Source: an uncultured Christensenella sp.
Lineage (GTDB): Bacteria > Bacillota > Clostridia > Christensenellales > Borkfalkiaceae
Reading direction: 5' to 3'
Assembly: GCA_910578765.1 (NCBI GenBank)
Contig: CAJTRW010000001.1
Location: 3,386 to 67,385 of the forward strand
DNA length: 64,000 nt
A program made the position numbers and the translations under genes. Shown here in pieces: positions 49,441-59,356 of this stretch (position 1 is the first letter of the stretch; every line of letters starts with the position of its first letter). The notes beneath the pieces were generated by a model. The model was not told where the DNA came from and did no database searches. It saw only the letters and a program-made list of their open reading frames with translations.

Positions 49441-49576
49441 TTTTAGATGATCGGCGTTTTACGTATTGATTTCCGCTTACACGAAAAAAGCGGCGCACTT
49501 TGGCATGCAGTGGATTGCCGTAAGAAGATAAGCTACGTAATAGCGGCGGCACAACAAAAAATATAAGCGGTTAAAA

Positions 49577-49745
49577 CTAACCGCTTATTATTTTAATAAA
49601 ATATGATTTTATCCTGAAATGATTTAAATTGCCGATATGCTGCATATTGACTATGTCTTGTCCGTTTGCATCAAGCACAGCATGATTACCCCAACAATCG
49701 TAAATATATTTTACCACAATGTTACCTGTATTGTCAATATTAGTT
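49577..49745 (-). pseudogene. Orphan RHS core fragment (relic, no start codon and no toxin tip)
   Basis: It reads NIDNTGNIVVKYIYDCWGNHAVLDANGQDIVNMQHIGNLNHFRIKSYF... It is about 85-90% identical at DNA level to 51169-51297 of the intact RHS gene, including a 49-nt perfect run. Hairpins flank it at 49563-49588 and 49753-49779. Confidence 0.8.
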
Positions 49746-49752
49746 AAACAAA

Positions 49753-49779
49753 GAAGGGGACGGCATGCGTCCCCTTCTT
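49753..49779 (-). terminator. Terminator after the RHS immunity candidate
   Basis: Stem gaaggggacg / cgtccccttc, followed on the minus strand by TTTGTTT. Confidence 0.7.
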
Positions 49780-49782
49780 CGT

Positions 49783-50301
49783 TTAAGGATTATTGATTTT
49801 TTCTTTAACAAAATTTATTACATTTGTATAGCCCGTTTCAAAATCAAGATATGTTTTACCGTTAATATCTACCGCAAATACAGGATAGCGCCAACCGTCC
49901 CACCCGATATAATCGTTTGTCGTAAATGTAATTACCGTATCTTCATTAATATCGTCGAAAAATCCTGATTCCTCTAAGATAACAATGCTCTCATCAACAA
50001 AATAAAATCTTTGCCTTTGATATGCAGTAACCGCCGCTTGCGCATTAGGATAATCCTTATATTTTTCAAAAAAGTCGTCGGAATCAATTAAGATTTTAAA
50101 CTCTGTCTTTATTTCAGCAAAAGTCTTTTGGGTAATGGTTGCATTAAAAGTTTGAAATACAAATCTTTCTGTTTTATTTGTATAAGCGTCATAAACTTGT
50201 TTCCACTGAGTACGCGCGCACGCTTTACAGCCGCTAAAAGAAAATAAAACGGTAAATATAAAAACTATTATCGCAAAAAGTTTAACGCTTTTATTTTTCA
50301 T
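49783..50301 (-). CDS. Lipoprotein, candidate cognate immunity protein of the RHS toxin
   Basis: 172 aa. A signal peptide with lipobox FSFSGC is present. It lies 19 nt downstream of the RHS stop and I recognise no family. Confidence 0.55.
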   Translation of the reverse strand: MKNKSVKLFAIIVFIFTVLFSFSGCKACARTQWKQVYDAYTNKTERFVFQTFNATITQKTFAEIKTEFKILIDSDDFFEKYKDYPNAQAAVTAYQRQRFYFVDESIVILEESGFFDDINEDTVITFTTNDYIGWDGWRYPVFAVDINGKTYLDFETGYTNVINFVKEKINNP

Positions 50302-50320
50302 AATATCACCTTAATTAATT

Positions 50321-53300
50321 TTAAAGTTTTTTATAGAAAGAATGTACTATAGGTCCTAAAAAATAAGAATATACTAAATACTTTAATGCTCGTTTATAAT
50401 CTGCATTAGAATGTCCGCTTGAAATGCCACCAAAGAGATCGGCTCCAGCGTCCCACGGCGTTTCATAATAATCCCATGATGTTCTGTTATACCAGTTTTT
50501 ATATGAAGGTATTCCTATACAAACTCCATACCTAAAAATCCCTAACATCATAAGCTGAGGGACATGCCCAAACTCGTGTCTTACTGTGTCCGCATCCGTA
50601 TCAGACCTATCAAGTAGTATAATACCGAAAGAACCTGACCGCCCACTACCTATATTTGCCCTAATTACCGGAACTCCTTTGTAAAAGGACATTACTTGAG
50701 CTTTTGCCGCATTGTCCGCATTGGTGTTGTAAGGATTCCAACTTATTGCCGACATATCACTTTCTATGGCGCTATTAAAAACCGAGCCGACCAGCGCCGC
50801 GCCGTAAAGGCTTAGCGTCAAACCGAATTCAGCCGCAACGGCAAATAAGGGGCTTGCCATTGCAGGCAACAGCGTTGACGAAGTAATTGCCACGCCGACG
50901 GCGGCTAAAACTATACCGCCGACAACTTTGCCCGCCTGCACCCACCAGTCTTTTTTCCAAATCTCATACCACTTTGCTTTCATTCCGCTCGGGTCAACGT
51001 ACATCACGGGATTATTGCCGCAGTATGCAAACAAATTTAAGCCGTTTACGCTTTCATAGTCGGCGTATTCAATGCTGTCCTGTGAGATAAATCTGCCAAG
51101 CTCGGGGTCGTAATACCGCGTTTGTAAATAATACAAGCCTGTTTCGGTATCGTAATAGTAACTGCGGTATCTGAACGGATTTAAATTGCCGATATGCTGC
51201 ATATTGACTATGTCTTGTCCGTTTGCGTCTATAACCGCATGATTGCCCCAACAATCGTATACATATTTTACCACAATGTTACCGTCACGGTCAAGTATTG
51301 CTACAATATTCCCCTGCGCGTCCTTACGGTAAAAATACTGTTTATCCGCATATATCACACCCGCAACGCCGCTATTGTCATAGATAAACTGTAACCCGTT
51401 GCTTTGCGCTATTAAGTTGCCTGCGCTGTCGTAAACATAACTTATGGTGTTTTTATTTACGCGCCTGCCCGTACCGTCGTAAACGAAGCTTACTCCGTCA
51501 CAGTTAGTAAGTACTTTGCCGTAGCTCCACTGCAACGCTTTGCCGCGGTATACCGTGGGACTGCCGAAGTTGTTATATGTGAACAATTCCCCGTTATAAT
51601 TTTTAAGCCTGTCGCCGTCGTAGTCGTAAGTGAAGTGATTACAAATTTTTTCGGAAAGCTCCTCTCTGCTTTTCGAGGAATACTCGTACTCGCAACGCTC
51701 GGTTATGTTACCGTTTGTATCGTAAGTATACAGTACGGTTTTGTTTAAAGGTTTGTTGTCCTCTCTTACAATTCTGCCCAGAGTATCATATGAATACTTT
51801 GCAAAAACATGACCGTTTTCAATTATCTCGCAGATATTGCCGCGGTTGTCGTATTTGTACTTTATGCTGTCCTTGATATTTGCGCCGTTGCCGTACCAGA
51901 CCGTGGCGGGCATATTTGTTGCATGGTCGCCGACTTTGCGGTAACTGATATATTCACAAGAAATTTTGTTGGAACCGTTTAAAATCTCCTTGCCCGTATT
52001 CCTGCCGTTTATGTCAGTTAAAGGTTTAAACGAATATTCTTTGAATTTAATTTCGCTTAGCTTTTGCGCCGCAGTGTTGTCGTAGTAATAAGCATAAGTC
52101 TGCGAAACCGCGCCCGATATTGCTTTGCGTTTTAAAGCGTTCAATTCGTCATATGTATAGCTTTCCGTCACCTGCGCGGAGGAGTTTTTAAGCGTCGTCG
52201 CGGAAGTTAAATTGCCGTAACCGTCGTAAACGAACGAAGCGTTGTATTTGTCGGCGGAACCGATACATTTACTTTCCACACTTTCCAACTGCTGTTTGGC
52301 GTTGTACTTTTTCTCGCTCAGTTTAGTTCCGTCAACGGAAGCGGTTTGCGTCCTTATAACTCCGTCCGCGGTATCTACGCCCGTGTCGCTTTGCGTGACA
52401 GTACATATAATTTCGCCGTCGATAATCGAGGTTTGCTTTTCGCCGAAAACATACTTGCCGGTTGCGGCGGCGTAAGTATAATCTTTATAAGAATATTCGG
52501 CATAGTCGCTATTGTTTACCGACGCGAAAATTTTTCGGCGGGTATGGTCGTAGGTATTAGATATGACCGTGCTGCCGCTTTTTATTTCAACCGGTAAACC
52601 GCAGTTGTAAAAAACGTCGGTTGTGTTTGCTTCGCCGTTTGCGTCGCTTGCGGTTACGGAAGTTATCATGTCGTTATACGCATCGCGTCCGTATGCGATT
52701 TTACCGCCGTCGGGATAGGTAACGGAATTAATTACGTTAGTACCGTTCTTATACCCGTATTCCGCAACGCGCGCGCCGGTTTCGTCGACGTCGGCGATTA
52801 TCTGACCGTTTTCCGCCGTAACGCTTTCGCTATAAAACTTGGTGGAACTGTCCAGCGTGTTGTAGCTGACCGTTTTTACTGCGTTACCGTTTTTATCGTA
52901 AAAGCGCTCCTCGATATTTTTACCCGTAACAAGCTCCTCTCCCTCGACGTAGCTTTCGGTGAGCGTAAGACTGCCGTGCGAATTATAACGGTAATTCGTC
53001 ACGTAGTTTTTTTGCGTTATTTCGCCGTTAACCTCGGTATATTCGCAGGTTATTGCGGAAATTAAATTTTCATCATTGTCGTAGGAATAATTGATTTCCG
53101 TCTTAACGCGCGCGGTGTCGGATATGTTTTGCCAGTCTGAAACCGACGAAGTAAGCAAATTGAAATTGTCGTATTTTTCAACCGTGGTTACCGTTTTGTT
53201 GTCGGGCTTTGTCACGGTTACCGCCGTTACCGTTTTGCCGTCGGTGTAGTCGTAAACGTAATTTGTGACCGCCTCAGCGCCCGCCCCGTCCCTTTGCGTA

Positions 53301-56056
53301 AATTTTTTCACTTTTTTGCCGGAGTCGAAAACGTAGCTTTCGCTGTGACCGTTTTTTTCCGAAATTTCCGCGGTATTCTCGCCGTAAATAAAAGTTGTTT
53401 TCGCAAGAGTTTTATTAAACGAGTCTTTTTCGGTAATTACGTTTCGTGATATAGTTACGGGTTTCGAATTGGTGTTAATTTCCGTTATGCGGCTGTCTGC
53501 GTCGAATGAAAATTTATACTGCAAGCCGTCTTCCGTCTCAATACTGCGTATCTGATTACTCTGATATTTTAATTTCAAAAATCCGCCGTCCGCAAATTTT
53601 ACCGACTGCAAATTTAAGCCGCTGTATGCGTATTCGGTCTTTCTGCCGAGGCTGTCGGTTATGCTTGTAAGCAGCCCGTTTTCATAACCGAAGCGCAAAG
53701 TTTTACCCTCGTTGTCGTATACGGAAATTATTTTATTAGCCGAATCGTACTCTAAGGATATAGTGTTTCCGTGCGCGTCGAACATACATACGAGATTGCC
53801 GTTCTTGTTGAAACCGCTTATTACTCCGTTTTCGTCTTTGAGGTAATTAACCGGCGTATGTTTAAGCAGTAATTCCAGCTCTGCTTTTTTGGCAAAATAG
53901 TTTATAAAGCTTTGCTTTACCGCTTCGAAATTTTTCCTTGCCTGGGAAATAATGCTGTCCGATTGCCCTTTTACGGCACTTTTTTGACTTCTTAACAGCT
54001 CTGTGTCGGACGTTATACCGCTCTGCGTTTCCTGTTCACTAATTTCTTTTTCCAGCTGCTTTATACTTACCGATAACGATTGCAACTGATAAGCCGAGCC
54101 CGCGGGCAAGAGGATATAATTTGAATTTTCGCTTACGCCCTCGAACAATCTTTCGCAACTATTTTCATCAAGATCCGAAGCCCGGTAACTTATATTTAAA
54201 TCCGGCAAAATAAGTTTGACGTATTCCGACAGTGACGCTTTATAAGCTTTAACGGTTTCTTCAAGCTGAATTTGCTCCTGACGGCGCTGTTCGATAAGCT
54301 GGTAGTTTTTGAAATCGTCTATCACGGGTATCAGTGTAAAATTATCGCAAACCTGATGCCTGATTATTTGTTTTCCGTTGTAAGTCAAATTACCGCTGAC
54401 GTCTATCGCCACGTCGTTTTTATAAACGAAATGTCTTTCGCCGTTTTCGACGTAATAATAAACCTCTTTAAAAGTATGTTCGTCGCCAAGTTCATCGGTA
54501 TATGTATAAATTGTTTTATTTGCCATATCTTCTTGAGCAAGTTTCAGCTTGCTCCATAAATTCAGCTTCCAGTTTTCGCCGACGTAATTGCGCCCGTTAC
54601 CTTTCCTGTAAGAATTAACGATATTCAACGGAAAAACAAACCCGTCGCCGTCAAAGCTGTTTATTTCGCAAGTTACCGCGCCGGTGTTTACATCAACCGA
54701 CGCCACAACGTTTTTGCCGAGTTTAAACCGTTTGATATTCGCTTTATCCGCAGGGACTTTATCGGCTTCGGATTCCTTTTCTTCCCCGCCAGATTCGGGT
54801 TTGTTAGGGACGTAATCAATAATAAGCTGAGGCGCGTTTTGTCCATTTGCATAAAATTCAACATTTGAATTCTGTACTTCGGGATAATATGTTTTACCCT
54901 CGAAAATTATGAGGACATTACCGTTTGTATTGACATAATCTTCGGTTATATCGAAAATAAACGCACCGCTTTGATAAGTATATACCGTACTTTCTTTGCC
55001 GTTTATAAAAAAATAGCCGCTTCCGCCCTCCATAGCCGTAACTTTTAATTTTACGCTGTTTATCGCTCCGTCTACTTTTACTTTATCTTTATAAATCGTA
55101 ATTTCCGCAGTTTCTTGTGTTTGATTGTTAGTACTGCTGTATAAAAAAAGCTGGTTTTCAAAATAGCTCAATTCCGGATCGCTGGGATTATAATAACAGG
55201 TCTCAAACTTAAATGCCGTACTCGCGTTCACTATTATCTGCGGGTCGATTGTGACGGGTAAGGCGGTGGTTTCGGCGTTGATAAACTCCGCGTCGGCGAC
55301 AACTTTTATATTAAGCATACCGCTGTTCGCGTTTATTTCGTAGCTTACCTTATCGGAAAATTTATTGTTTGCGTCGTACATAAAAGGCGCAGGAATTATA
55401 AACTGTATCTTTCCGTTTTCATCGCTTAAACGCAGAGTATTATTTTCACCCTTTTCCGCTTTTAAGCCGCCTATATCCAGCGTGAAAAAGTACTCGTATA
55501 AGTCCTTCCTTTGCGTAATTTTAATATTTTCCTTTACCCTGTCGGCAAGCGGTAGATACTCTATTTCCGTACCGTCGTCAAGCGTCGCAAGGACTGTGGA
55601 ATTCCCATCGCAAAGGCGGCATGCGCAACCGCAGGAGCACCTTGCCCTCAAGCCTCCCGCCGAAAGAGTAATAACCTTTTCCCCCTTGGTAAGAGAGAAT
55701 ATTTTACCGTTGTTTGCGTCTTTGTCGAATTTCACCTTATAGCCGTTTTCGGCGTTTTCTATAATTTTTCCGTTATCGTAAAGACGGGTGTCGATTGGTT
55801 TTAATTTTCCGTCATCGCCGCAAAAATGCAGCGGCGCGGCGGATATTACTTTGCGCAAAAGATTATTGTTGCGCATGTAGGTATAAGAGTTTTGCGTGCG
55901 GAGATCTACGCTTTCATTTATGTATCCCCCGTCCTTTTCCGAAGCTGCGCAAGTATTTTTTACCGCCGCGTGACGGTTGTCACGCGGCGCTTCGTTTGCG
56001 CAGGAGGTGTTTTTTTCGCTTTCGCAAAAAACCGAATTGAATTTTAAAGTTCCCAT
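50321..56056 (-). CDS. RHS/YD-repeat polymorphic toxin, 1911 aa
   Basis: Many YD repeats (for example YDSANKIISVYDNEGKTLRFGYENGLLTSITDSLGRKTEYAY). RHS core end YYDPELGRFISQDS...NLFAYCGNNPVMYVDPSG is present. AAGGAG RBS lies upstream and there is no N-terminal signal peptide. Confidence 0.92.
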   Translation of the reverse strand: MGTLKFNSVFCESEKNTSCANEAPRDNRHAAVKNTCAASEKDGGYINESVDLRTQNSYTYMRNNNLLRKVISAAPLHFCGDDGKLKPIDTRLYDNGKIIENAENGYKVKFDKDANNGKIFSLTKGEKVITLSAGGLRARCSCGCACRLCDGNSTVLATLDDGTEIEYLPLADRVKENIKITQRKDLYEYFFTLDIGGLKAEKGENNTLRLSDENGKIQFIIPAPFMYDANNKFSDKVSYEINANSGMLNIKVVADAEFINAETTALPVTIDPQIIVNASTAFKFETCYYNPSDPELSYFENQLFLYSSTNNQTQETAEITIYKDKVKVDGAINSVKLKVTAMEGGSGYFFINGKESTVYTYQSGAFIFDITEDYVNTNGNVLIIFEGKTYYPEVQNSNVEFYANGQNAPQLIIDYVPNKPESGGEEKESEADKVPADKANIKRFKLGKNVVASVDVNTGAVTCEINSFDGDGFVFPLNIVNSYRKGNGRNYVGENWKLNLWSKLKLAQEDMANKTIYTYTDELGDEHTFKEVYYYVENGERHFVYKNDVAIDVSGNLTYNGKQIIRHQVCDNFTLIPVIDDFKNYQLIEQRRQEQIQLEETVKAYKASLSEYVKLILPDLNISYRASDLDENSCERLFEGVSENSNYILLPAGSAYQLQSLSVSIKQLEKEISEQETQSGITSDTELLRSQKSAVKGQSDSIISQARKNFEAVKQSFINYFAKKAELELLLKHTPVNYLKDENGVISGFNKNGNLVCMFDAHGNTISLEYDSANKIISVYDNEGKTLRFGYENGLLTSITDSLGRKTEYAYSGLNLQSVKFADGGFLKLKYQSNQIRSIETEDGLQYKFSFDADSRITEINTNSKPVTISRNVITEKDSFNKTLAKTTFIYGENTAEISEKNGHSESYVFDSGKKVKKFTQRDGAGAEAVTNYVYDYTDGKTVTAVTVTKPDNKTVTTVEKYDNFNLLTSSVSDWQNISDTARVKTEINYSYDNDENLISAITCEYTEVNGEITQKNYVTNYRYNSHGSLTLTESYVEGEELVTGKNIEERFYDKNGNAVKTVSYNTLDSSTKFYSESVTAENGQIIADVDETGARVAEYGYKNGTNVINSVTYPDGGKIAYGRDAYNDMITSVTASDANGEANTTDVFYNCGLPVEIKSGSTVISNTYDHTRRKIFASVNNSDYAEYSYKDYTYAAATGKYVFGEKQTSIIDGEIICTVTQSDTGVDTADGVIRTQTASVDGTKLSEKKYNAKQQLESVESKCIGSADKYNASFVYDGYGNLTSATTLKNSSAQVTESYTYDELNALKRKAISGAVSQTYAYYYDNTAAQKLSEIKFKEYSFKPLTDINGRNTGKEILNGSNKISCEYISYRKVGDHATNMPATVWYGNGANIKDSIKYKYDNRGNICEIIENGHVFAKYSYDTLGRIVREDNKPLNKTVLYTYDTNGNITERCEYEYSSKSREELSEKICNHFTYDYDGDRLKNYNGELFTYNNFGSPTVYRGKALQWSYGKVLTNCDGVSFVYDGTGRRVNKNTISYVYDSAGNLIAQSNGLQFIYDNSGVAGVIYADKQYFYRKDAQGNIVAILDRDGNIVVKYVYDCWGNHAVIDANGQDIVNMQHIGNLNPFRYRSYYYDTETGLYYLQTRYYDPELGRFISQDSIEYADYESVNGLNLFAYCGNNPVMYVDPSGMKAKWYEIWKKDWWVQAGKVVGGIVLAAVGVAITSSTLLPAMASPLFAVAAEFGLTLSLYGAALVGSVFNSAIESDMSAISWNPYNTNADNAAKAQVMSFYKGVPVIRANIGSGRSGSFGIILLDRSDTDADTVRHEFGHVPQLMMLGIFRYGVCIGIPSYKNWYNRTSWDYYETPWDAGADLFGGISSGHSNADYKRALKYLVYSYFLGPIVHSFYKKL
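50324..50980 (-). other. C-terminal toxin tip of the RHS protein: 2 TM helices plus an HExxH domain
   Basis: 219 aa follow DPSGM. VVGGIVLAAVGVAITSSTLLPAM and PLFAVAAEFGLTLSLYGAALVGSVF are hydrophobic helices, followed by DTVRHEFGHVPQ. Confidence 0.7.
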
Positions 56057-56068
56057 TTTATTCTCCTT

Positions 56069-56524
56069 TTAGTCTTTTTTGCGGTTTGTCAGAATTATTG
56101 TTTCACTTTCCGGCGTCTGCTTATCCGTGTTTTGAGACTCTTCCAGACTTTCCTTGATTTTTTCAACCGCTTCCTTGTTTGCCTGAATTTCCGTTTCCGT
56201 TAAAAACTTTTTCTCTGACGGAACAAATTTTTCCCAAAACGCGTAAATCGCAAGGCTGAGACTTACCGCAGACAGCCATTTCATGAAAAACTGCGCGTCG
56301 AAATGGGATTGTCCTGTCAGTAAAAAGTTTATAAGGGTCGTCATTCCGAAGCCTGTAACCAACGGCAGAAAAACTATGAAGCGCGTAATTTTTTTCGCGC
56401 AAGTAAATTTTTCCGCCAGCTTTTTTAAGGGCAGTTTTATAATGCCCGTCAGGATAACCGTCGCCAGGGCCGCAATTGCGGTTATCCCGCCGTCATCCGA
56501 TAAAAGCGCGATTAACTTATCCAT
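56069..56524 (-). CDS. Small 3-TM membrane protein with an acidic/basic tail (holin-like topology)
   Basis: 151 aa, ending 12 nt before the RHS start. Three hydrophobic helices are followed by the charged tail KKFLTETEIQANKEAVEKIKESLEESQNTDKQ. Confidence 0.5.
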   Translation of the reverse strand: MDKLIALLSDDGGITAIAALATVILTGIIKLPLKKLAEKFTCAKKITRFIVFLPLVTGFGMTTLINFLLTGQSHFDAQFFMKWLSAVSLSLAIYAFWEKFVPSEKKFLTETEIQANKEAVEKIKESLEESQNTDKQTPESETIILTNRKKD

Positions 56525-57136: not shown

Positions 57137-59356
57137 TTAAACTATTTTTTCAAAAATCGCAGACGCTCCTAAAAAGGATATAATATTTGTTTCACACCGT
57201 TCTGCAGTAGTTACGCCGTCAGACCACCTTACAAACCGGTATCCTTCATAGGGTATTGCTTTTACCATCAACGAACTGCCGTATTCTATACGTTTTGAAA
57301 CATATAATTCGGAACTCGGCACCTCTGTACCGTTATTAATCTCAACTATTTTCCCTACACGATATAAATTTAACGGTTCATCCACAAAATTAACTGCTAC
57401 GGTTACTTTATGTTTCCAAAATTCCCAAGGTATTCCGCATTCCTTTCCGTCTATTTCCGCTTCTCTCAATAAATAATCTTTAATACTGTCAAACTCTTTT
57501 AATTTCAATTTATAAATATAATACGTCAATACGTCATGAAATCCCTTACCGACAACTTCGTTCTCAAGCCATCCATAAGACATTTCGCAAGTGTGTATAA
57601 ATTCGTGCAAAAACGTTCCTATTATAGATGTATTATCGTCGGATATAACTTTGCTGTCTATTTGTTTCTGCAAAAATTTATGTAAGGGTATATTATTTCT
57701 CTTTGGAGAAGATATTATATCTTCAATATAGATACAGCCATACTTATTCCCTGCCACACCGCTGCAAAAATGCAATAGGTCTTGGTAATCGTTCATACAA
57801 AACGCTGTCAATACACTGTGGTACAAATTGTTTAACGTTGCCAATTCGGGTATATCGTTACCATATAGAGTATAATCTACATTATCTCCGCTTGTTCCCG
57901 AACTGAAACTATCCGTTCCAACGGGAATTAAAGTGAAATATGAATCTATTTCAAATTTAACTTTGCCTTCAAACCATTGGTTAAGACAGATTTGCATTTT
58001 ATCTGTTACCGCAGTACAAAGCACGCGTTCAAAACCTGACATTTTGTAATCAACTTCTATTTCCGTATTAGTTTTCGACGATTTAAGCGTTGCATGTACT
58101 TCGTCTACGTATGTTATCAGAATTTTATAAACAGGAACTTCGGGGTCCTCTTCACCTTCCCACCTTGCATACAACGTATTCGCATCCAACGTTAAGCCGT
58201 TATAACCTAACATATATAAGCCGTTTTCATTTACGACTTTAATTTTATATTCTTTATCCGCATACCAACCGCCGAATTTATATCCGCTTAATTCCGGTAT
58301 TACGAATTTTAAATTTTGTACGTTGTTTCTGTTTATTTTAACTTCGGATGCCGCAGGCGTTTTATAATTTGTGCCGTAATCATATTTAAACACTCTTTCT
58401 ATCGGTTCGAAGTATGCCATATATTCGAAATTTTTTTTTGCGGATAAATCACGCCTTATCGGATTCATACTCAAATCCGACCAGCCGCTAAACACGTAGC
58501 CATCGTCCGCTACGGCTTCTATTTTACTGCAATTTTGTTCGGGCATTACCTCCTGATATGTTTCGCCTTTTAATTTCCCGCCAACGTTATCGTTAACTTT
58601 ATATTCTATGCGACATCCGAAATACGCTATTATATGTAAATCTTCGGAAATTCCTGTATCCCGACGGGTGGGCGTCGTTACTCCGTCAGACCACTTCAAA
58701 AAGATATAGTTATTAAAGGCTACCGCCGTTACGCTTTGCGCATCTTCACCGTATAGTACTTTCTGATCGTACCATCCCTCTATTTTGCCCATACCGAATA
58801 CATTGACATCATAACGTAACGTATACTTTACTTTTTTAAATATTGCAGTATACGTCTTATCTTGGTTTGTTCCAGTATCCTGTCTTTCAGAAGTTACTTT
58901 TCCGTCCGACCATTTCTCAAATTCATATCCGTAGTTCGCAACAGCAATTACCGTTTCTCCAACGTCGCCCGCTTTAATATTTTGTTCGTTTTTTCCGCTT
59001 ATTGTACCGTTCCCGTCCGTTTCATACCGCAATGCAAATTTTACTTTTTTAAATTGCGCCGTAACACTTATATCGCTTGTTACGTTTTTATCTTGTCTTG
59101 TCACTTCAGTTAATCCGTCCGACCATTTTACAAATTGATAGCCGTCATTGGGTACAGCAGTAACCTCGGTTCCGTCTTCACCCTCTTTTACGGATTGATT
59201 GGCGGTGCCGTTTATTGCTCCGCCCGCACTTACAGAATAAGTTACGGTAAAATACTGCTCTTCATTTTCTGTATGAGCAGGGGTTGCGCAACCGCATATT
59301 AATATTCCGCAAGCCAGCGAAAGAATAAAAATCAAAACAGGAAGTATTTTCTTCAT
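57137..59356 (-). CDS. Lipoprotein with at least 5 InlB-B/Listeria-Bacteroides-type repeats and an HExxH domain
   Basis: 739 aa. Lipobox LICGC is present. The repeat ...DGYQFVKWSDG / YGYEFEKWSDG / NNYIFLKWSDG / DGYVFSGWSD / EGYRFVRWSDG recurs. The central domain carries FLHEFIHTCE. Confidence 0.7.
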   Translation of the reverse strand: MKKILPVLIFILSLACGILICGCATPAHTENEEQYFTVTYSVSAGGAINGTANQSVKEGEDGTEVTAVPNDGYQFVKWSDGLTEVTRQDKNVTSDISVTAQFKKVKFALRYETDGNGTISGKNEQNIKAGDVGETVIAVANYGYEFEKWSDGKVTSERQDTGTNQDKTYTAIFKKVKYTLRYDVNVFGMGKIEGWYDQKVLYGEDAQSVTAVAFNNYIFLKWSDGVTTPTRRDTGISEDLHIIAYFGCRIEYKVNDNVGGKLKGETYQEVMPEQNCSKIEAVADDGYVFSGWSDLSMNPIRRDLSAKKNFEYMAYFEPIERVFKYDYGTNYKTPAASEVKINRNNVQNLKFVIPELSGYKFGGWYADKEYKIKVVNENGLYMLGYNGLTLDANTLYARWEGEEDPEVPVYKILITYVDEVHATLKSSKTNTEIEVDYKMSGFERVLCTAVTDKMQICLNQWFEGKVKFEIDSYFTLIPVGTDSFSSGTSGDNVDYTLYGNDIPELATLNNLYHSVLTAFCMNDYQDLLHFCSGVAGNKYGCIYIEDIISSPKRNNIPLHKFLQKQIDSKVISDDNTSIIGTFLHEFIHTCEMSYGWLENEVVGKGFHDVLTYYIYKLKLKEFDSIKDYLLREAEIDGKECGIPWEFWKHKVTVAVNFVDEPLNLYRVGKIVEINNGTEVPSSELYVSKRIEYGSSLMVKAIPYEGYRFVRWSDGVTTAERCETNIISFLGASAIFEKIV

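What the first reader, a model, noticed from the sequence alone, without database searches (positions are those of the whole stretch)
50321..50980. RHS toxin tip made of two TM helices plus an HExxH metallopeptidase-like domain
After the canonical core end (PVMYVDPSG) the last 219 aa contain two strongly hydrophobic helices and then DTVRHEFGHVPQ. Most characterised RHS or LXG tips are soluble nucleases, deaminases or ADP-ribosyltransferases. A membrane-inserting zinc-peptidase-like tip paired with a lipoprotein immunity candidate (acting outside the cytoplasm) would point to an envelope target.
Basis: partly seen in the sequence, partly recalled or inferred. Interest (0 to 1): 0.6.

Follow-up and report, generated by a model that had tools for sequence, protein, structure and literature searches.

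The report
Membrane-anchored zinc-protease-like RHS toxin tip
The end of this giant RHS toxin gene encodes an unnamed but widespread zinc-protease-like killing domain with its own greasy membrane anchor, always followed by a small lipoprotein antidote gene. It therefore most likely attacks rival bacteria at the outer face of their cell membrane, a new family within a familiar kind of bacterial weapon.

Summary
The 1911-aa RHS ORF (50321-56056, minus) ends its core at PVMYVDPSG. Its last ~220 aa hold a two-helix hydrophobic hairpin, then HEFGHVPQ. A 172-aa lipoprotein gene follows 19 nt downstream.

The tip matches no Pfam, NCBIfam, PHROG or PDB entry, but it is not an orphan. There are 737 clusters at 50% identity, and in the members examined the domain lies at the C-terminal end of an RHS protein or RHS fragment. 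In 188 members H136, E137, H140 and S160 are invariant, Q143 is in 184, and residue 178 is always acidic. That gives HExGHxxQ...PW[E/D]xxAD, a gluzincin-type signature. AlphaFold models are confident (pLDDT 93) but match no solved fold.

In 37 loci the downstream gene is a lipoprotein 36 times, in three families that track the tip clades. A strain of the same species has swapped only the catalytic half plus the lipoprotein gene. Six carrier genomes lack penicillin-binding proteins, which argues against a peptidoglycan target.

Best reading: an envelope-acting zincin-like toxin working at the membrane's outer face. This is a new variant of a known kind; the closest analogue is VgrG2b/Tpe1-Tpi1. 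The scan met this tip type before on other DNA (e1-3886607; e1-1350796 describes a similar one).

The parts
50321..56056 (-). RHS/YD-repeat polymorphic toxin gene, 1911 aa, with no N-terminal signal peptide visible
   Evidence: One open frame. PF05593 RHS_repeat 2.9e-17. TIGR01643 and TIGR03696 also match. Close full-length relatives are P0003-P0013.
50981..51259 (-). RHS-associated core end (residues 1600-1692), ending ...PVMYVDPSG(M). This is the junction between the conserved shell and the variable tip.
   Evidence: TIGR03696 Rhs_assc_core matches 1-76 of 76 model positions, E 4.1e-22.
50777..50947 (-). Hydrophobic helical hairpin (tip residues 13-69): WWVQAGKVVGGIVLAAVGVAITSSTLL-PAMASP-LFAVAAEFGLTLSLYGAALVGSVF
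   Evidence: Sequence and hydropathy are. AlphaFold gives helices at 2-41 and 45-69 with pLDDT above 93. Members of other clades keep a helix-2-like pattern with Q in place of E, as read from the printed sequences.
50324..50776 (-). Conserved ~145-aa catalytic-type core (tip residues 70-220). It has three beta-strands, an HExGHxxQ helix, a hydrophobic helix ending GIPS, a PW[E/D]xxAD helix and a C-terminal helix.
   Evidence: 737 clusters have E<=1e-3. Alignments A1, A3 and A4 were built. The core model has pLDDT 93.2 and pTM 0.87.
50555..50578 (-). HEFGHVPQ, the HExGHxxQ motif (tip H136, E137, G139, H140, Q143)
   Evidence: Translation is. H, E and H are present in 188 of 188 domains, G in 187 and Q in 184.
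50438..50458 (-). PWDAGAD, the candidate third metal ligand helix (acidic residue 178, then D182)
   Evidence: Translation is. Position 178 is E in 176 and D in 12 of 188 domains. A181 is in 186. Position 182 is D or E in 157.
49597..50663 (-). Swappable cassette: the catalytic half of the tip (from just after SFYKGVPV), the lipoprotein gene and an RHS relic. A strain of the same species carries an alternative HERGH half plus a 255-aa lipoprotein here.
   Evidence: blastn of the window against L019 gives 96.9% identity down to 50664 and 99.3% from 49596. Nothing between aligns except the relic's 84% match to the RHS core. The alternative proteins are P0008 and P0229.
49783..50301 (-). Immunity candidate: a 172-aa lipoprotein (signal peptide, lipobox FSGC, Cys25), 19 nt after the RHS stop codon with an AAGGTGA ribosome-binding site
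   Evidence: Sequence is. Homologues sit directly downstream of related tips in L001, L002 and L004. It belongs to family 1 of three lipoprotein families.
49751..49780 (-). GC-rich hairpin (GAAGAAGGGGAC...GTCCCCTTCTT) directly after the lipoprotein stop codon
   Evidence: Read directly from the sequence. The terminator scan did not call it, because the T-run is short.

Best explanation
The last ~220 residues of this RHS protein are a polymorphic toxin domain from a large, unnamed family. The family consists of a compact gluzincin-like metal hydrolase core (HExGHxxQ ... PW[E/D]xxAD) built onto a hydrophobic helical hairpin.

Proposed mechanism (inferred): the RHS shell carries the greasy tip. 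After release at the DPSG core end, the hairpin inserts from outside into the target cell's cytoplasmic membrane. Both ends of a hairpin stay on the entry side, so the catalytic site is held at the outer membrane surface. There it cleaves a membrane-anchored or membrane-proximal component that walled and wall-less Firmicutes share. That component is more likely a surface lipoprotein or membrane protein than peptidoglycan.

The co-transcribed lipoprotein, tethered to the outer leaflet of the producer's membrane, binds the catalytic half and blocks it.

Shown here: the anatomy, residue conservation, family size, partner linkage and cassette exchange. Inferred: metal binding, proteolysis, topology, target and protection.
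For: - RHS architecture with an intact core end.
- Family size and position. The tip family has 737 clusters at 50% identity. In the 211 members analysed the domain ends within 20 residues of the C-terminus in 196, and 9 of 10 mid-length proteins scanned had an RHS-repeat hit, some below Pfam's cut-off.
- Residue conservation. H136, E137, H140 and S160 are present in 188 of 188 domains, Q143 in 184, and residue 178 is acidic in all 188.
- Structure. AlphaFold gives pLDDT 93.5 and pTM 0.89. Three beta-strands directly precede the HExxH helix, and the acidic residue lies on a later helix. This is the zincin layout.
- Exported partners. In 37 loci, 36 downstream genes are lipoproteins and one is a polytopic membrane protein.
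- Co-variation. The three lipoprotein families cluster on the tip tree: 6 changes against a shuffled mean of 15.1, with 0 of 200 shuffles as low.
- Within-locus control. Two genes that follow other RHS-type ORFs in L021, one of them a weak Ntox37 match, have no signal peptide.
- Cassette exchange. A same-species strain keeps an identical hairpin but has exchanged the catalytic half together with the lipoprotein gene. The partner therefore tracks the HExxH half.
- Wall-less carriers. Six genomes with the tip and a lipoprotein gene beside it have no PBP transpeptidase match, and the four of them tested have no SEDS match. The own genome has both.
- Precedents. HExxH toxins with an envelope-located immunity protein are described in PMC6899460. 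Membrane or lipoprotein immunity is used as a marker of extracellular action in PMC12419801.
Against: - No significant similarity to any solved zincin or any other structure. Foldseek against PDB gives a best E of 0.9 for the full tip and 4.6 for the core.
- No profile hit in PDB sequences.
- hhalign against an eCIS_core/DUF4157 alignment gives only 19% probability and covers only the motif.
- The zincin assignment therefore rests on motif, spacing and predicted topology.
- About 37% of members lack a strongly hydrophobic pre-domain, so membrane insertion may not be obligatory.
- The RHS protein has no recognisable export signal, so the delivery route is unknown.
- Completeness of the PBP-less genomes is not given, and their taxon labels come from MAG records.
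- No toxicity, immunity or metal-binding data exist.
Confidence: 0.58

Rival explanations
1. The hydrophobic hairpin is the killing part. It would be a pore-forming or depolarising peptide of the Tse5-CT or glycine-zipper type. The HExxH domain would be only an accessory or processing peptidase.
For: The two helices are rich in Gly, Ala and Ser. RHS tips that insert into membranes and depolarise cells are known (PMC10684867, PMC9637101). Zhang et al. describe HExxHxxQ-E peptidases that act as releasing peptidases (PMC3482391).
Against: About 37% of family members have no strongly hydrophobic segment, yet they keep the HExxH core. The hairpin-less members examined still have a lipoprotein partner. 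The same-species variant keeps an identical hairpin but swaps the catalytic half and the lipoprotein gene. The invariant residues lie in the HExxH core, not in the hairpin.
Confidence: 0.12
2. The core is a metal-dependent hydrolase or binder that is not a protease. It might act on a lipid-linked or other non-protein envelope molecule at the membrane surface.
For: No detectable homology to any characterised peptidase. The helices around the active-site motif are hydrophobic, and rare stand-alone membrane-protein homologues exist. Together these suggest an interfacial active site. Lipid-directed polymorphic toxins with lipoprotein immunity are known (TelC and Lipocone toxins, PMC12419801).
Against: HExxH plus a downstream acidic ligand preceded by a beta-sheet is the signature of zincin peptidases (established knowledge; Zhang et al., PMC3482391). 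Genomes without PBP or SEDS genes carry the system, which argues against a lipid II or peptidoglycan target.
Confidence: 0.2
3. The toxin acts in the cytoplasm, and the hydrophobic helices serve only to carry the catalytic domain across the target membrane.
For: Some delivered toxins use hydrophobic segments for membrane translocation (general knowledge; not tested here).
Against: All 37 immunity-position proteins examined are exported lipoproteins or membrane proteins. A cytoplasmic toxin would need a cytoplasmic antidote. A two-helix hairpin leaves both ends on the side of entry.
Confidence: 0.05
4. The tip is not a toxin. It would be a cis-acting membrane anchor or maturation protease for the RHS protein, with the lipoprotein as a structural partner.
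For: The RHS protein lacks a signal peptide. Rare stand-alone homologues are small membrane proteins outside RHS contexts.
Against: The locus shows the hallmarks of toxin-immunity polymorphism. These are cassette replacement between strains, an RHS core relic next to the cassette, arrays of orphan tip-lipoprotein pairs, patchy distribution and three unrelated partner families that co-vary with tip clades.
Confidence: 0.05

Closest known systems
VgrG2b C-terminal domain / Tpe1-Tpi1 type VI metallopeptidase effector-immunity pairs (PMC6899460)
   Same: Both are antibacterial HExxH toxin domains at the C-terminus of a delivery protein. In the known family, toxicity occurs only outside the cytoplasm and needs the HExxH residues. 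Immunity proteins there are periplasmic, lipoprotein or membrane-anchored, and the proposed targets are membrane-tethered lipoproteins. The logic here is the same: HExxH plus an exported lipoprotein partner.
   Different: No solved structure of any kind matched the models by sequence or fold. The carrier here is an RHS protein in Bacillota and wall-less Mycoplasmatota-labelled genomes, not a VgrG spike of Gram-negative bacteria. This family also has a built-in hydrophobic hairpin.
Zincin-like toxin tips of polymorphic toxins (Tox-MPTase1-5, Tox-HopH1/M91) and the PVC-metallopeptidase (DUF4157/eCIS_core), Zhang et al. 2012 (PMC3482391)
   Same: These are small alpha+beta HExxH domains, typically after RHS repeats. 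The PVC-metallopeptidase has the same HExxHxxQ-E signature and the same layout of three strands plus helices.
   Different: The Pfam models of these families do not match the tip. Among 53 members only one hit each is seen, at E 0.18 (eCIS_core) and 0.21 (Tox-MPTase4). Neither model matches the own genome. hhalign against an eCIS_core alignment gives 19% probability. Zhang et al.'s table lists no immunity protein for Tox-MPTase1-5.
Tse5-CT, the membrane-inserting RHS tip of P. aeruginosa (PMC10684867, PMC9637101)
   Same: Both are hydrophobic toxin fragments carried as the C-terminal tip of an RHS protein and directed at a membrane.
   Different: Tse5-CT is described as a pore-forming toxin (PMC10684867, PMC9637101). 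Here the conserved, partner-specifying part is an HExxH enzyme-like core, and the hairpin is dispensable in about a third of members.
TelC-TipC and Lipocone polymorphic toxins (PMC6193138, PMC12419801)
   Same: These are toxins of Gram-positive bacteria that act outside the cytoplasmic membrane. They are neutralised by membrane-tethered or lipoprotein immunity proteins.
   Different: The fold and chemistry are unrelated: those are lipid-head-group enzymes without HExxH. Delivery is by T7SS/LXG rather than RHS.

Membership tests
RHS/YD polymorphic toxin system | YD/RHS repeats forming the shell | tested here: met
   PF05593 2.9e-17. TIGR01643 5.3e-18. Relatives carry PF25023 TEN_YD-shell.
RHS/YD polymorphic toxin system | RHS-associated core ending in DPxG directly before a variable C-terminal tip | tested here: met
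   TIGR03696 matches residues 1600-1692 over the full model, E 4.1e-22. The sequence reads ...PVMYVDPSG.
RHS/YD polymorphic toxin system | The tip and the adjacent small gene are exchanged as a cassette between strains; relics or orphan cassettes are present | tested here: met
   The cassette 49597-50663 is replaced in L019. An RHS relic lies at 49610-49717. Orphan tip-lipoprotein arrays occur in L002, L004, L005 and L007.
RHS/YD polymorphic toxin system | Toxicity of the tip and protection by the adjacent gene product | not testable with these tools
   This needs expression experiments.
Zincin (HExxH) metallopeptidases, gluzincin type | HExxH on an alpha-helix, conserved across the family | tested here: met
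   H136, E137 and H140 are in 188 of 188 domains. They lie in helix 131-147 of the model.
Zincin (HExxH) metallopeptidases, gluzincin type | A third metal ligand (Glu or Asp) on a helix C-terminal to HExxH | tested here: inconclusive
   Residue 178 is acidic in 188 of 188 domains and is followed by D/E182 in 157 (an ExxxD-like pattern). It lies on helix 176-185. The geometry could not be inspected because no coordinates were available.
Zincin (HExxH) metallopeptidases, gluzincin type | A beta-sheet directly N-terminal to the active-site helix | tested here: met
   Strands at 98-101, 104-109 and 122-125 come before helix 131-147. The core-only model shows the same.
Zincin (HExxH) metallopeptidases, gluzincin type | Detectable sequence or structural similarity to a characterised zincin | tested here: not met
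   phmmer and a family profile against PDB sequences found nothing. Foldseek against PDB gave a best E of 0.9 and 4.6. Pfam hits to zincin families were only marginal, E 0.015 to 0.2, in single members.
Zincin (HExxH) metallopeptidases, gluzincin type | Zinc binding and peptide-bond hydrolysis | not testable with these tools
   This needs biochemistry.
PVC-metallopeptidase / DUF4157 / eCIS_core (PF13699) | HExxHxxQ ... E signature | tested here: met
   The motif is HEFGHVPQ. Q143 is in 184 of 188 domains and residue 178 is acidic in all 188. The signature is as described in PMC3482391.
PVC-metallopeptidase / DUF4157 / eCIS_core (PF13699) | A match to the family model or profile | tested here: not met
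   The tip gets no Pfam hit at E<=1. PF13699 finds nothing in the own genome. hhalign against an alignment of 9 eCIS_core domains gives 19% probability, covering only 15 motif columns.
PVC-metallopeptidase / DUF4157 / eCIS_core (PF13699) | Typically lies N-terminal to a separate toxin domain as a releasing peptidase in PVC/eCIS cargo (C-terminal toxin versions exist) | tested here: not met
   Here the domain is at the extreme C-terminus of an RHS protein. Zhang et al. note that some C-terminal versions may act as toxins.
Tox-MPTase4 (PF15640) | A match to the family model | tested here: not met
   The tip gets no hit. One of 53 members hits at E 0.21. The own genome has no match, and no match exceeds the cut-off in 401 genomes.
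Tpe1-Tpi1 / VgrG2b-Cter family | HExxH effector with an envelope-located immunity protein | tested here: met
   36 of 37 partners are lipoproteins. This is a functional analogy only.
Tpe1-Tpi1 / VgrG2b-Cter family | Homology to the VgrG2b C-terminal metallopeptidase fold | tested here: not met
   No PDB chain reached E<=1e-3 with either model.
Tpe1-Tpi1 / VgrG2b-Cter family | Delivery by a type VI secretion system | not tested
   T6SS genes were not searched for. The hosts are Bacillota and genomes labelled Mycoplasmatota.

The most novel reading that the evidence does not exclude
The family is a membrane-embedded, interfacial zinc protease toxin. The hairpin and the hydrophobic helices around the active site would sink the catalytic centre into the outer leaflet of the target membrane. 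There it would cut a lipid-anchored or juxtamembrane target shared by walled Clostridia and wall-less Acholeplasma-like bacteria, for example lipoprotein tethers or an outer loop of an essential membrane protein. The lipoprotein antidotes could then act at the same interface, possibly as pseudo-substrates. I know of no described monoderm toxin of this kind.
Probability: 0.3. Interest if true: 0.7.

Novelty: new variant of a known kind. Interest (0 to 1): 0.5.

Why it matters
RHS and other polymorphic toxins of gut Firmicutes are almost unstudied. Few described antibacterial toxins act on the outside of the Gram-positive membrane; TelC is the example cited here.

This family is large (737 clusters at 50% identity), unnamed, and confidently folded with no match among solved structures. 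It has an unambiguous active-site signature and a clean genetic handle on its antidote. It also occurs in genomes without peptidoglycan-synthesis genes, which points to a conserved and so far unknown membrane-surface target. Identifying that target would reveal a vulnerability of the monoderm envelope and a new protease fold.

It does not overturn any concept. The logic of a zincin tip plus an exported immunity protein is established for Gram-negative T6SS effectors.

Tried and rejected
- Library scans. Pfam, NCBIfam and PHROG scans of the tip and the lipoprotein gave nothing. Scanning all 53 aligned members against Pfam gave only marginal single-member hits to HExxH families.
- PDB by sequence. 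The single sequence hit only noise. The first profile (A3) hit only the RHS core, because the alignment rows carried core residues. A core-only profile (A4) hit nothing.
- Foldseek. The full tip model against PDB gave only membrane-protein noise. The core-only model against PDB gave nothing, apart from ACE2 chains at E 5-9, which is not significant. BFVD gave one uncharacterised phage-labelled protein at E 7e-3 and weak PolyVal/IrrE-type hits above E 0.4.
- Membership in DUF4157/eCIS_core. I built an alignment from 9 genomic hits and ran hhalign. The probability was 3.7% in global mode and 19% in local mode, so I rejected membership.
- Membership in Tox-MPTase4. Rejected.
- Lipocone superfamily. 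Considered because of its TM helices and lipoprotein immunity. Rejected because those domains are all-helical lipid enzymes and the paper describes no HExxH.
- Phage and plasmid collections. tblastn found no match.
- Immunity families. Pfam scans of the three lipoprotein families found no family, only the lipid-attachment site.
- Stand-alone homologues. Gene neighbourhoods gave no consistent clue to function.
- Model geometry.
Full report
**1. The observation**

The minus strand of the window carries one 1911-aa open frame at 50321-56056. It has RHS/YD repeats (PF05593 2.9e-17; TIGR01643). The RHS-associated core model TIGR03696 matches residues 1600-1692 end to end (4.1e-22), finishing in ...NNPVMYVDPSG.

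Two hydrophobic stretches lie at tip residues ~13-42 and ~45-69 (window 50777-50947). Their Kyte-Doolittle 19-residue means reach 2.04 and 1.64. After them comes DTVRHEFGHVPQ, with HEFGHVPQ at 50555-50578.

Nineteen nucleotides after the stop codon, behind an AAGGTGA ribosome-binding site, a 172-aa ORF starts (49783-50301). Its N-terminus is a signal peptide plus lipobox (…LFSFSGC, Cys25). A GC-rich hairpin follows its stop codon.

**2. The tip belongs to no named family, but to a large unnamed one**

Pfam-A, NCBIfam, PHROGs and PDB sequences give nothing for the tip or the lipoprotein.

A full HMMER scan of 1.84 billion representative proteins finds 737 clusters at E<=1e-3, and 309 at E<=1e-10. 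In the 211 members analysed the domain ends within 20 residues of the C-terminus in 196. The proteins are of three sizes: full-length RHS proteins of 1500-2400 aa, RHS fragments, and ~200-aa orphan cassettes.

The conserved core spans tip residues ~76-220. In 188 non-redundant domains:
- H136, E137, H140 and S160 are invariant.
- G139 is present in 187, A181 in 186, Y101 in 186, G103 in 185 and Q143 in 184.
- Position 178 is always acidic (E in 176, D in 12).
- Position 182 is D or E in 157.

The signature is therefore S-F-Y-K-G-V-P-V ... HExGHxxQ ... GIPS ... PW[E/D]xxAD. An HExxH followed by an acidic residue and a second acid four residues later is the gluzincin pattern. This comparison rests on established knowledge of thermolysin-type enzymes; it is an inference, not a test.

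**3. Structure**

AlphaFold2 with a 53-sequence alignment gives confident models. The full tip has pLDDT 93.5 and pTM 0.89. The core alone has pLDDT 93.2 and pTM 0.87.

The order of elements is:
- two long helices (the hairpin);
- three beta-strands at 98-101, 104-109 and 122-125;
- the HExxH helix at 131-147;
- a hydrophobic helix ending in GIPS;
- the PW[E/D] helix at 176-185;
- a hydrophobic C-terminal helix.

This is a zincin-like layout. However, Foldseek finds no solved structure at E<=1e-3 with either model. A core-only family profile finds no PDB sequence. BFVD gives only an uncharacterised phage-labelled protein (E 7e-3) and insignificant PolyVal/IrrE-type hits.

I tested the two closest catalogued families. 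The PVC-metallopeptidase/DUF4157/eCIS_core has the same HExxHxxQ-E signature according to Zhang et al. (PMC3482391). It does not match by HMM. It reaches only 19% hhalign probability, over the motif alone. Tox-MPTase4 does not match either.

So the domain works like a zincin by every feature visible in sequence, but it is not a member of any described family.

**4. The hydrophobic hairpin**

Among 211 family members, 133 have at least one strongly hydrophobic segment in the 90 residues before the core, and 78 have none.

In species-representative genomes the commonest form follows the DPxG core end directly. It reads FPWLILAAVLLFTPVGGTALQVATSVVSYAGMAVASIF: a short first helix, a TPxGG turn, and a second helix. 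As read from the printed sequences, members of several clades have a similar second helix, with Q where this tip has E52. AlphaFold packs both helices against the core with high confidence.

One clade, mostly Oscillospiraceae, replaces the hairpin with an amphipathic segment (WVNDKIVQP..FVKDIAEDIKNFD). It still has lipoprotein partners.

I read the hairpin as a membrane-anchoring part of the fold, not as an independent pore-forming module.

**5. The partner gene**

Homologues of the 172-aa lipoprotein sit directly downstream of related tips in other assemblies.

I then made a systematic survey. It covered 42 loci from one-genome-per-species contigs plus six earlier loci, and asked what follows the tip. 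Of 37 loci with a downstream ORF:
- 36 encode proteins with a signal peptide ending in a lipobox-type cysteine. They fall into three unrelated families of 19, 9 and 8 members.
- One encodes a polytopic membrane protein.

None of these families is in Pfam. On a maximum-likelihood tree of the tips, the three partner families are strongly clustered: 6 changes against a shuffled mean of 15.1, with 0 of 200 shuffles as low. Related sequences share labels, so this shows clustering, not independent co-evolution events.

As a within-locus control, two genes that follow other RHS-type ORFs in L021, one of them a weak Ntox37 match, have no signal peptide.

An exported or tethered antidote implies that the toxin acts outside the cytoplasm. 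The same reasoning has been applied, and tested experimentally, for VgrG2b/PA0261 (PMC6899460). It is also used for TelC/TipC and Lipocone toxins (PMC12419801).

**6. Cassette exchange inside the domain**

A metagenomic contig from the same species (L019) has the same flanking genes. Its DNA is 96.9% identical to the window down to position 50664 and 99.3% identical from 49596 onward. Nothing between those points aligns except the relic's 84% match to the RHS core.

The break falls just after SFYKGVPV. The hairpin and the first 37 core residues are therefore shared. Two things are exchanged together:
- the catalytic half, which is HERGHTNQ... in the other strain (P0008);
- the partner gene, which is a 255-aa lipoprotein of family 3 (P0229).

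The partner therefore tracks the HExxH half, not the hairpin. This is the main argument against the reading that the hairpin is the toxin.

A 108-nt relic of the RHS core lies next to the cassette (49610-49717, 84% identical to the core).

**7. Hosts and the likely target**

The tip is single-copy in this 1.77-Mb genome, which is 95.7% complete. Its closest species-level relatives are labelled Christensenella or Christensenellaceae. The profile matches only 12 of 300 genomes sampled from the class at E<=1e-3, some of them weakly. It was not found in two species of the same genus. It has no match in the phage or plasmid collections.

The family also occurs, with lipoprotein partners, in genomes labelled Acholeplasmataceae, Acholeplasmatales and Bacilli. 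Six such genomes (holding L027, L037, L043, L040, L042 and L028) have no PBP transpeptidase match. The four of them tested have no SEDS (FtsW/RodA) match. The own genome and three other carriers have PBP matches, and the own genome also has SEDS. The three of them tested keep only 1-3 Mur-ligase-domain hits, against 6 in the own genome.

If the antidote is kept because the producer itself is sensitive, the target must exist in wall-less cells. That favours a membrane protein or lipoprotein over peptidoglycan or lipid II. This is an inference: the completeness of those genomes is not given.

**8. Distant stand-alone relatives**

The tip profile also detects small membrane proteins of 132-159 aa that are not linked to RHS genes. 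They have an N-terminal TM helix, then FYKGAVV, SVSLG, HEYGHTxQS, GIPS and TExWAN. They share every core motif but are in neither Pfam nor NCBIfam. They are rare, at roughly 6-8 of 300 genomes.

They show that the fold is natively membrane-associated. Their gene neighbourhoods gave no consistent clue to function.

**9. Mechanism, comparison and verdict**

Most likely (about 0.6), this is an RHS-delivered, zincin-like toxin that anchors in the target membrane from outside. It would hydrolyse a membrane-proximal substrate and be neutralised in the producer by a co-transcribed, outer-leaflet lipoprotein that binds the catalytic half.

The closest known system in logic is VgrG2b-Cter/Tpe1-Tpi1. 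The closest in signature is the PVC-metallopeptidase. Tse5 is the precedent for a hydrophobic RHS tip. Membership in each was tested and is not supported.

Delivery is unresolved, because the RHS protein has no signal peptide. A 151-aa holin-like membrane protein is encoded 12 nt upstream and is conserved in the same-species contigs.

This scan has seen the tip type before on other DNA. Note e1-3886607 shares sequence words with it. Note e1-1350796 describes a gut or rumen Clostridia RHS tip with the same logic. Those are unverified notes, and my conclusions rest on the calls cited above.

Novelty: a new variant of a known kind. Interest is moderate at 0.5. The family is large, has no named relatives, is cleanly defined and is directly testable, but its concept is established.

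Noticed in passing
window 49610-49717 (minus), between the lipoprotein gene and a terminator-like hairpin at 49563-49588: An orphan relic of the RHS core (…NIVVKYIYDCWGNHAVLDANGQDIVNMQHIGNLNHF…), 84% identical to the intact core region. It has no start codon and no tip. It looks like a scar of an earlier tip replacement.
   Followed up: partly
window 56069-56524 (minus): A 151-aa protein with about three TM helices and a charged tail is encoded 12 nt upstream of the signal-less RHS gene. A 151-aa gene lies in the same position in the same-species contigs L019 and L020. It has only weak PHROG hits (E 0.005) and no Pfam hit. It may be a holin-like export helper.
   Followed up: partly
L067-L071 (and L075-L080), genomes G538, G507, G600, G587, G652: A rare family of stand-alone 132-159-aa membrane proteins shares all the core motifs of the toxin tip (TM helix, FYKGAVV, SVSLG, HEYGHTxQS, GIPS, TExWAN). 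It is absent from Pfam and NCBIfam. Gene contexts differ: one lies next to two membrane-protein genes, another next to unrelated genes.
   Followed up: partly
L006 3626-4102: In one locus, a 158-aa polytopic membrane protein with about four TM helices follows the tip (P0177) instead of a lipoprotein. This would be a fourth kind of candidate immunity protein.
   Followed up: no
L002, L004, L005, L007: Tandem arrays of orphan cassettes of this same tip family, each followed by its own lipoprotein gene, lie downstream of a full-length RHS gene. They form a reservoir for tip switching.
   Followed up: partly
window 57137-59356 (minus): A 739-aa lipoprotein with four InlB-type B-repeat domains (PF18998, 2.4e-39) carries its own HExxH motif (FLHEFIHTCE) in an unannotated C-terminal region.
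   Followed up: no
L057/L021 and L006 (MAGs labelled Prevotella sp.), L051 (Endomicrobium), L060 (Paludibacter), L063 (Alistipes): Some tip copies sit in MAGs labelled as Bacteroidota or Elusimicrobiota. This could be mis-binning or horizontal transfer. The Endomicrobium copy has no lipoprotein downstream.
   Followed up: no
L046, L047, L048: Three rumen or gut MAG copies are stop-bounded short ORFs. An extra, very hydrophobic N-terminal segment (KD 3.08) precedes the usual hairpin, and no ORF of 70 aa or more lies within 300 nt downstream.
   Followed up: no
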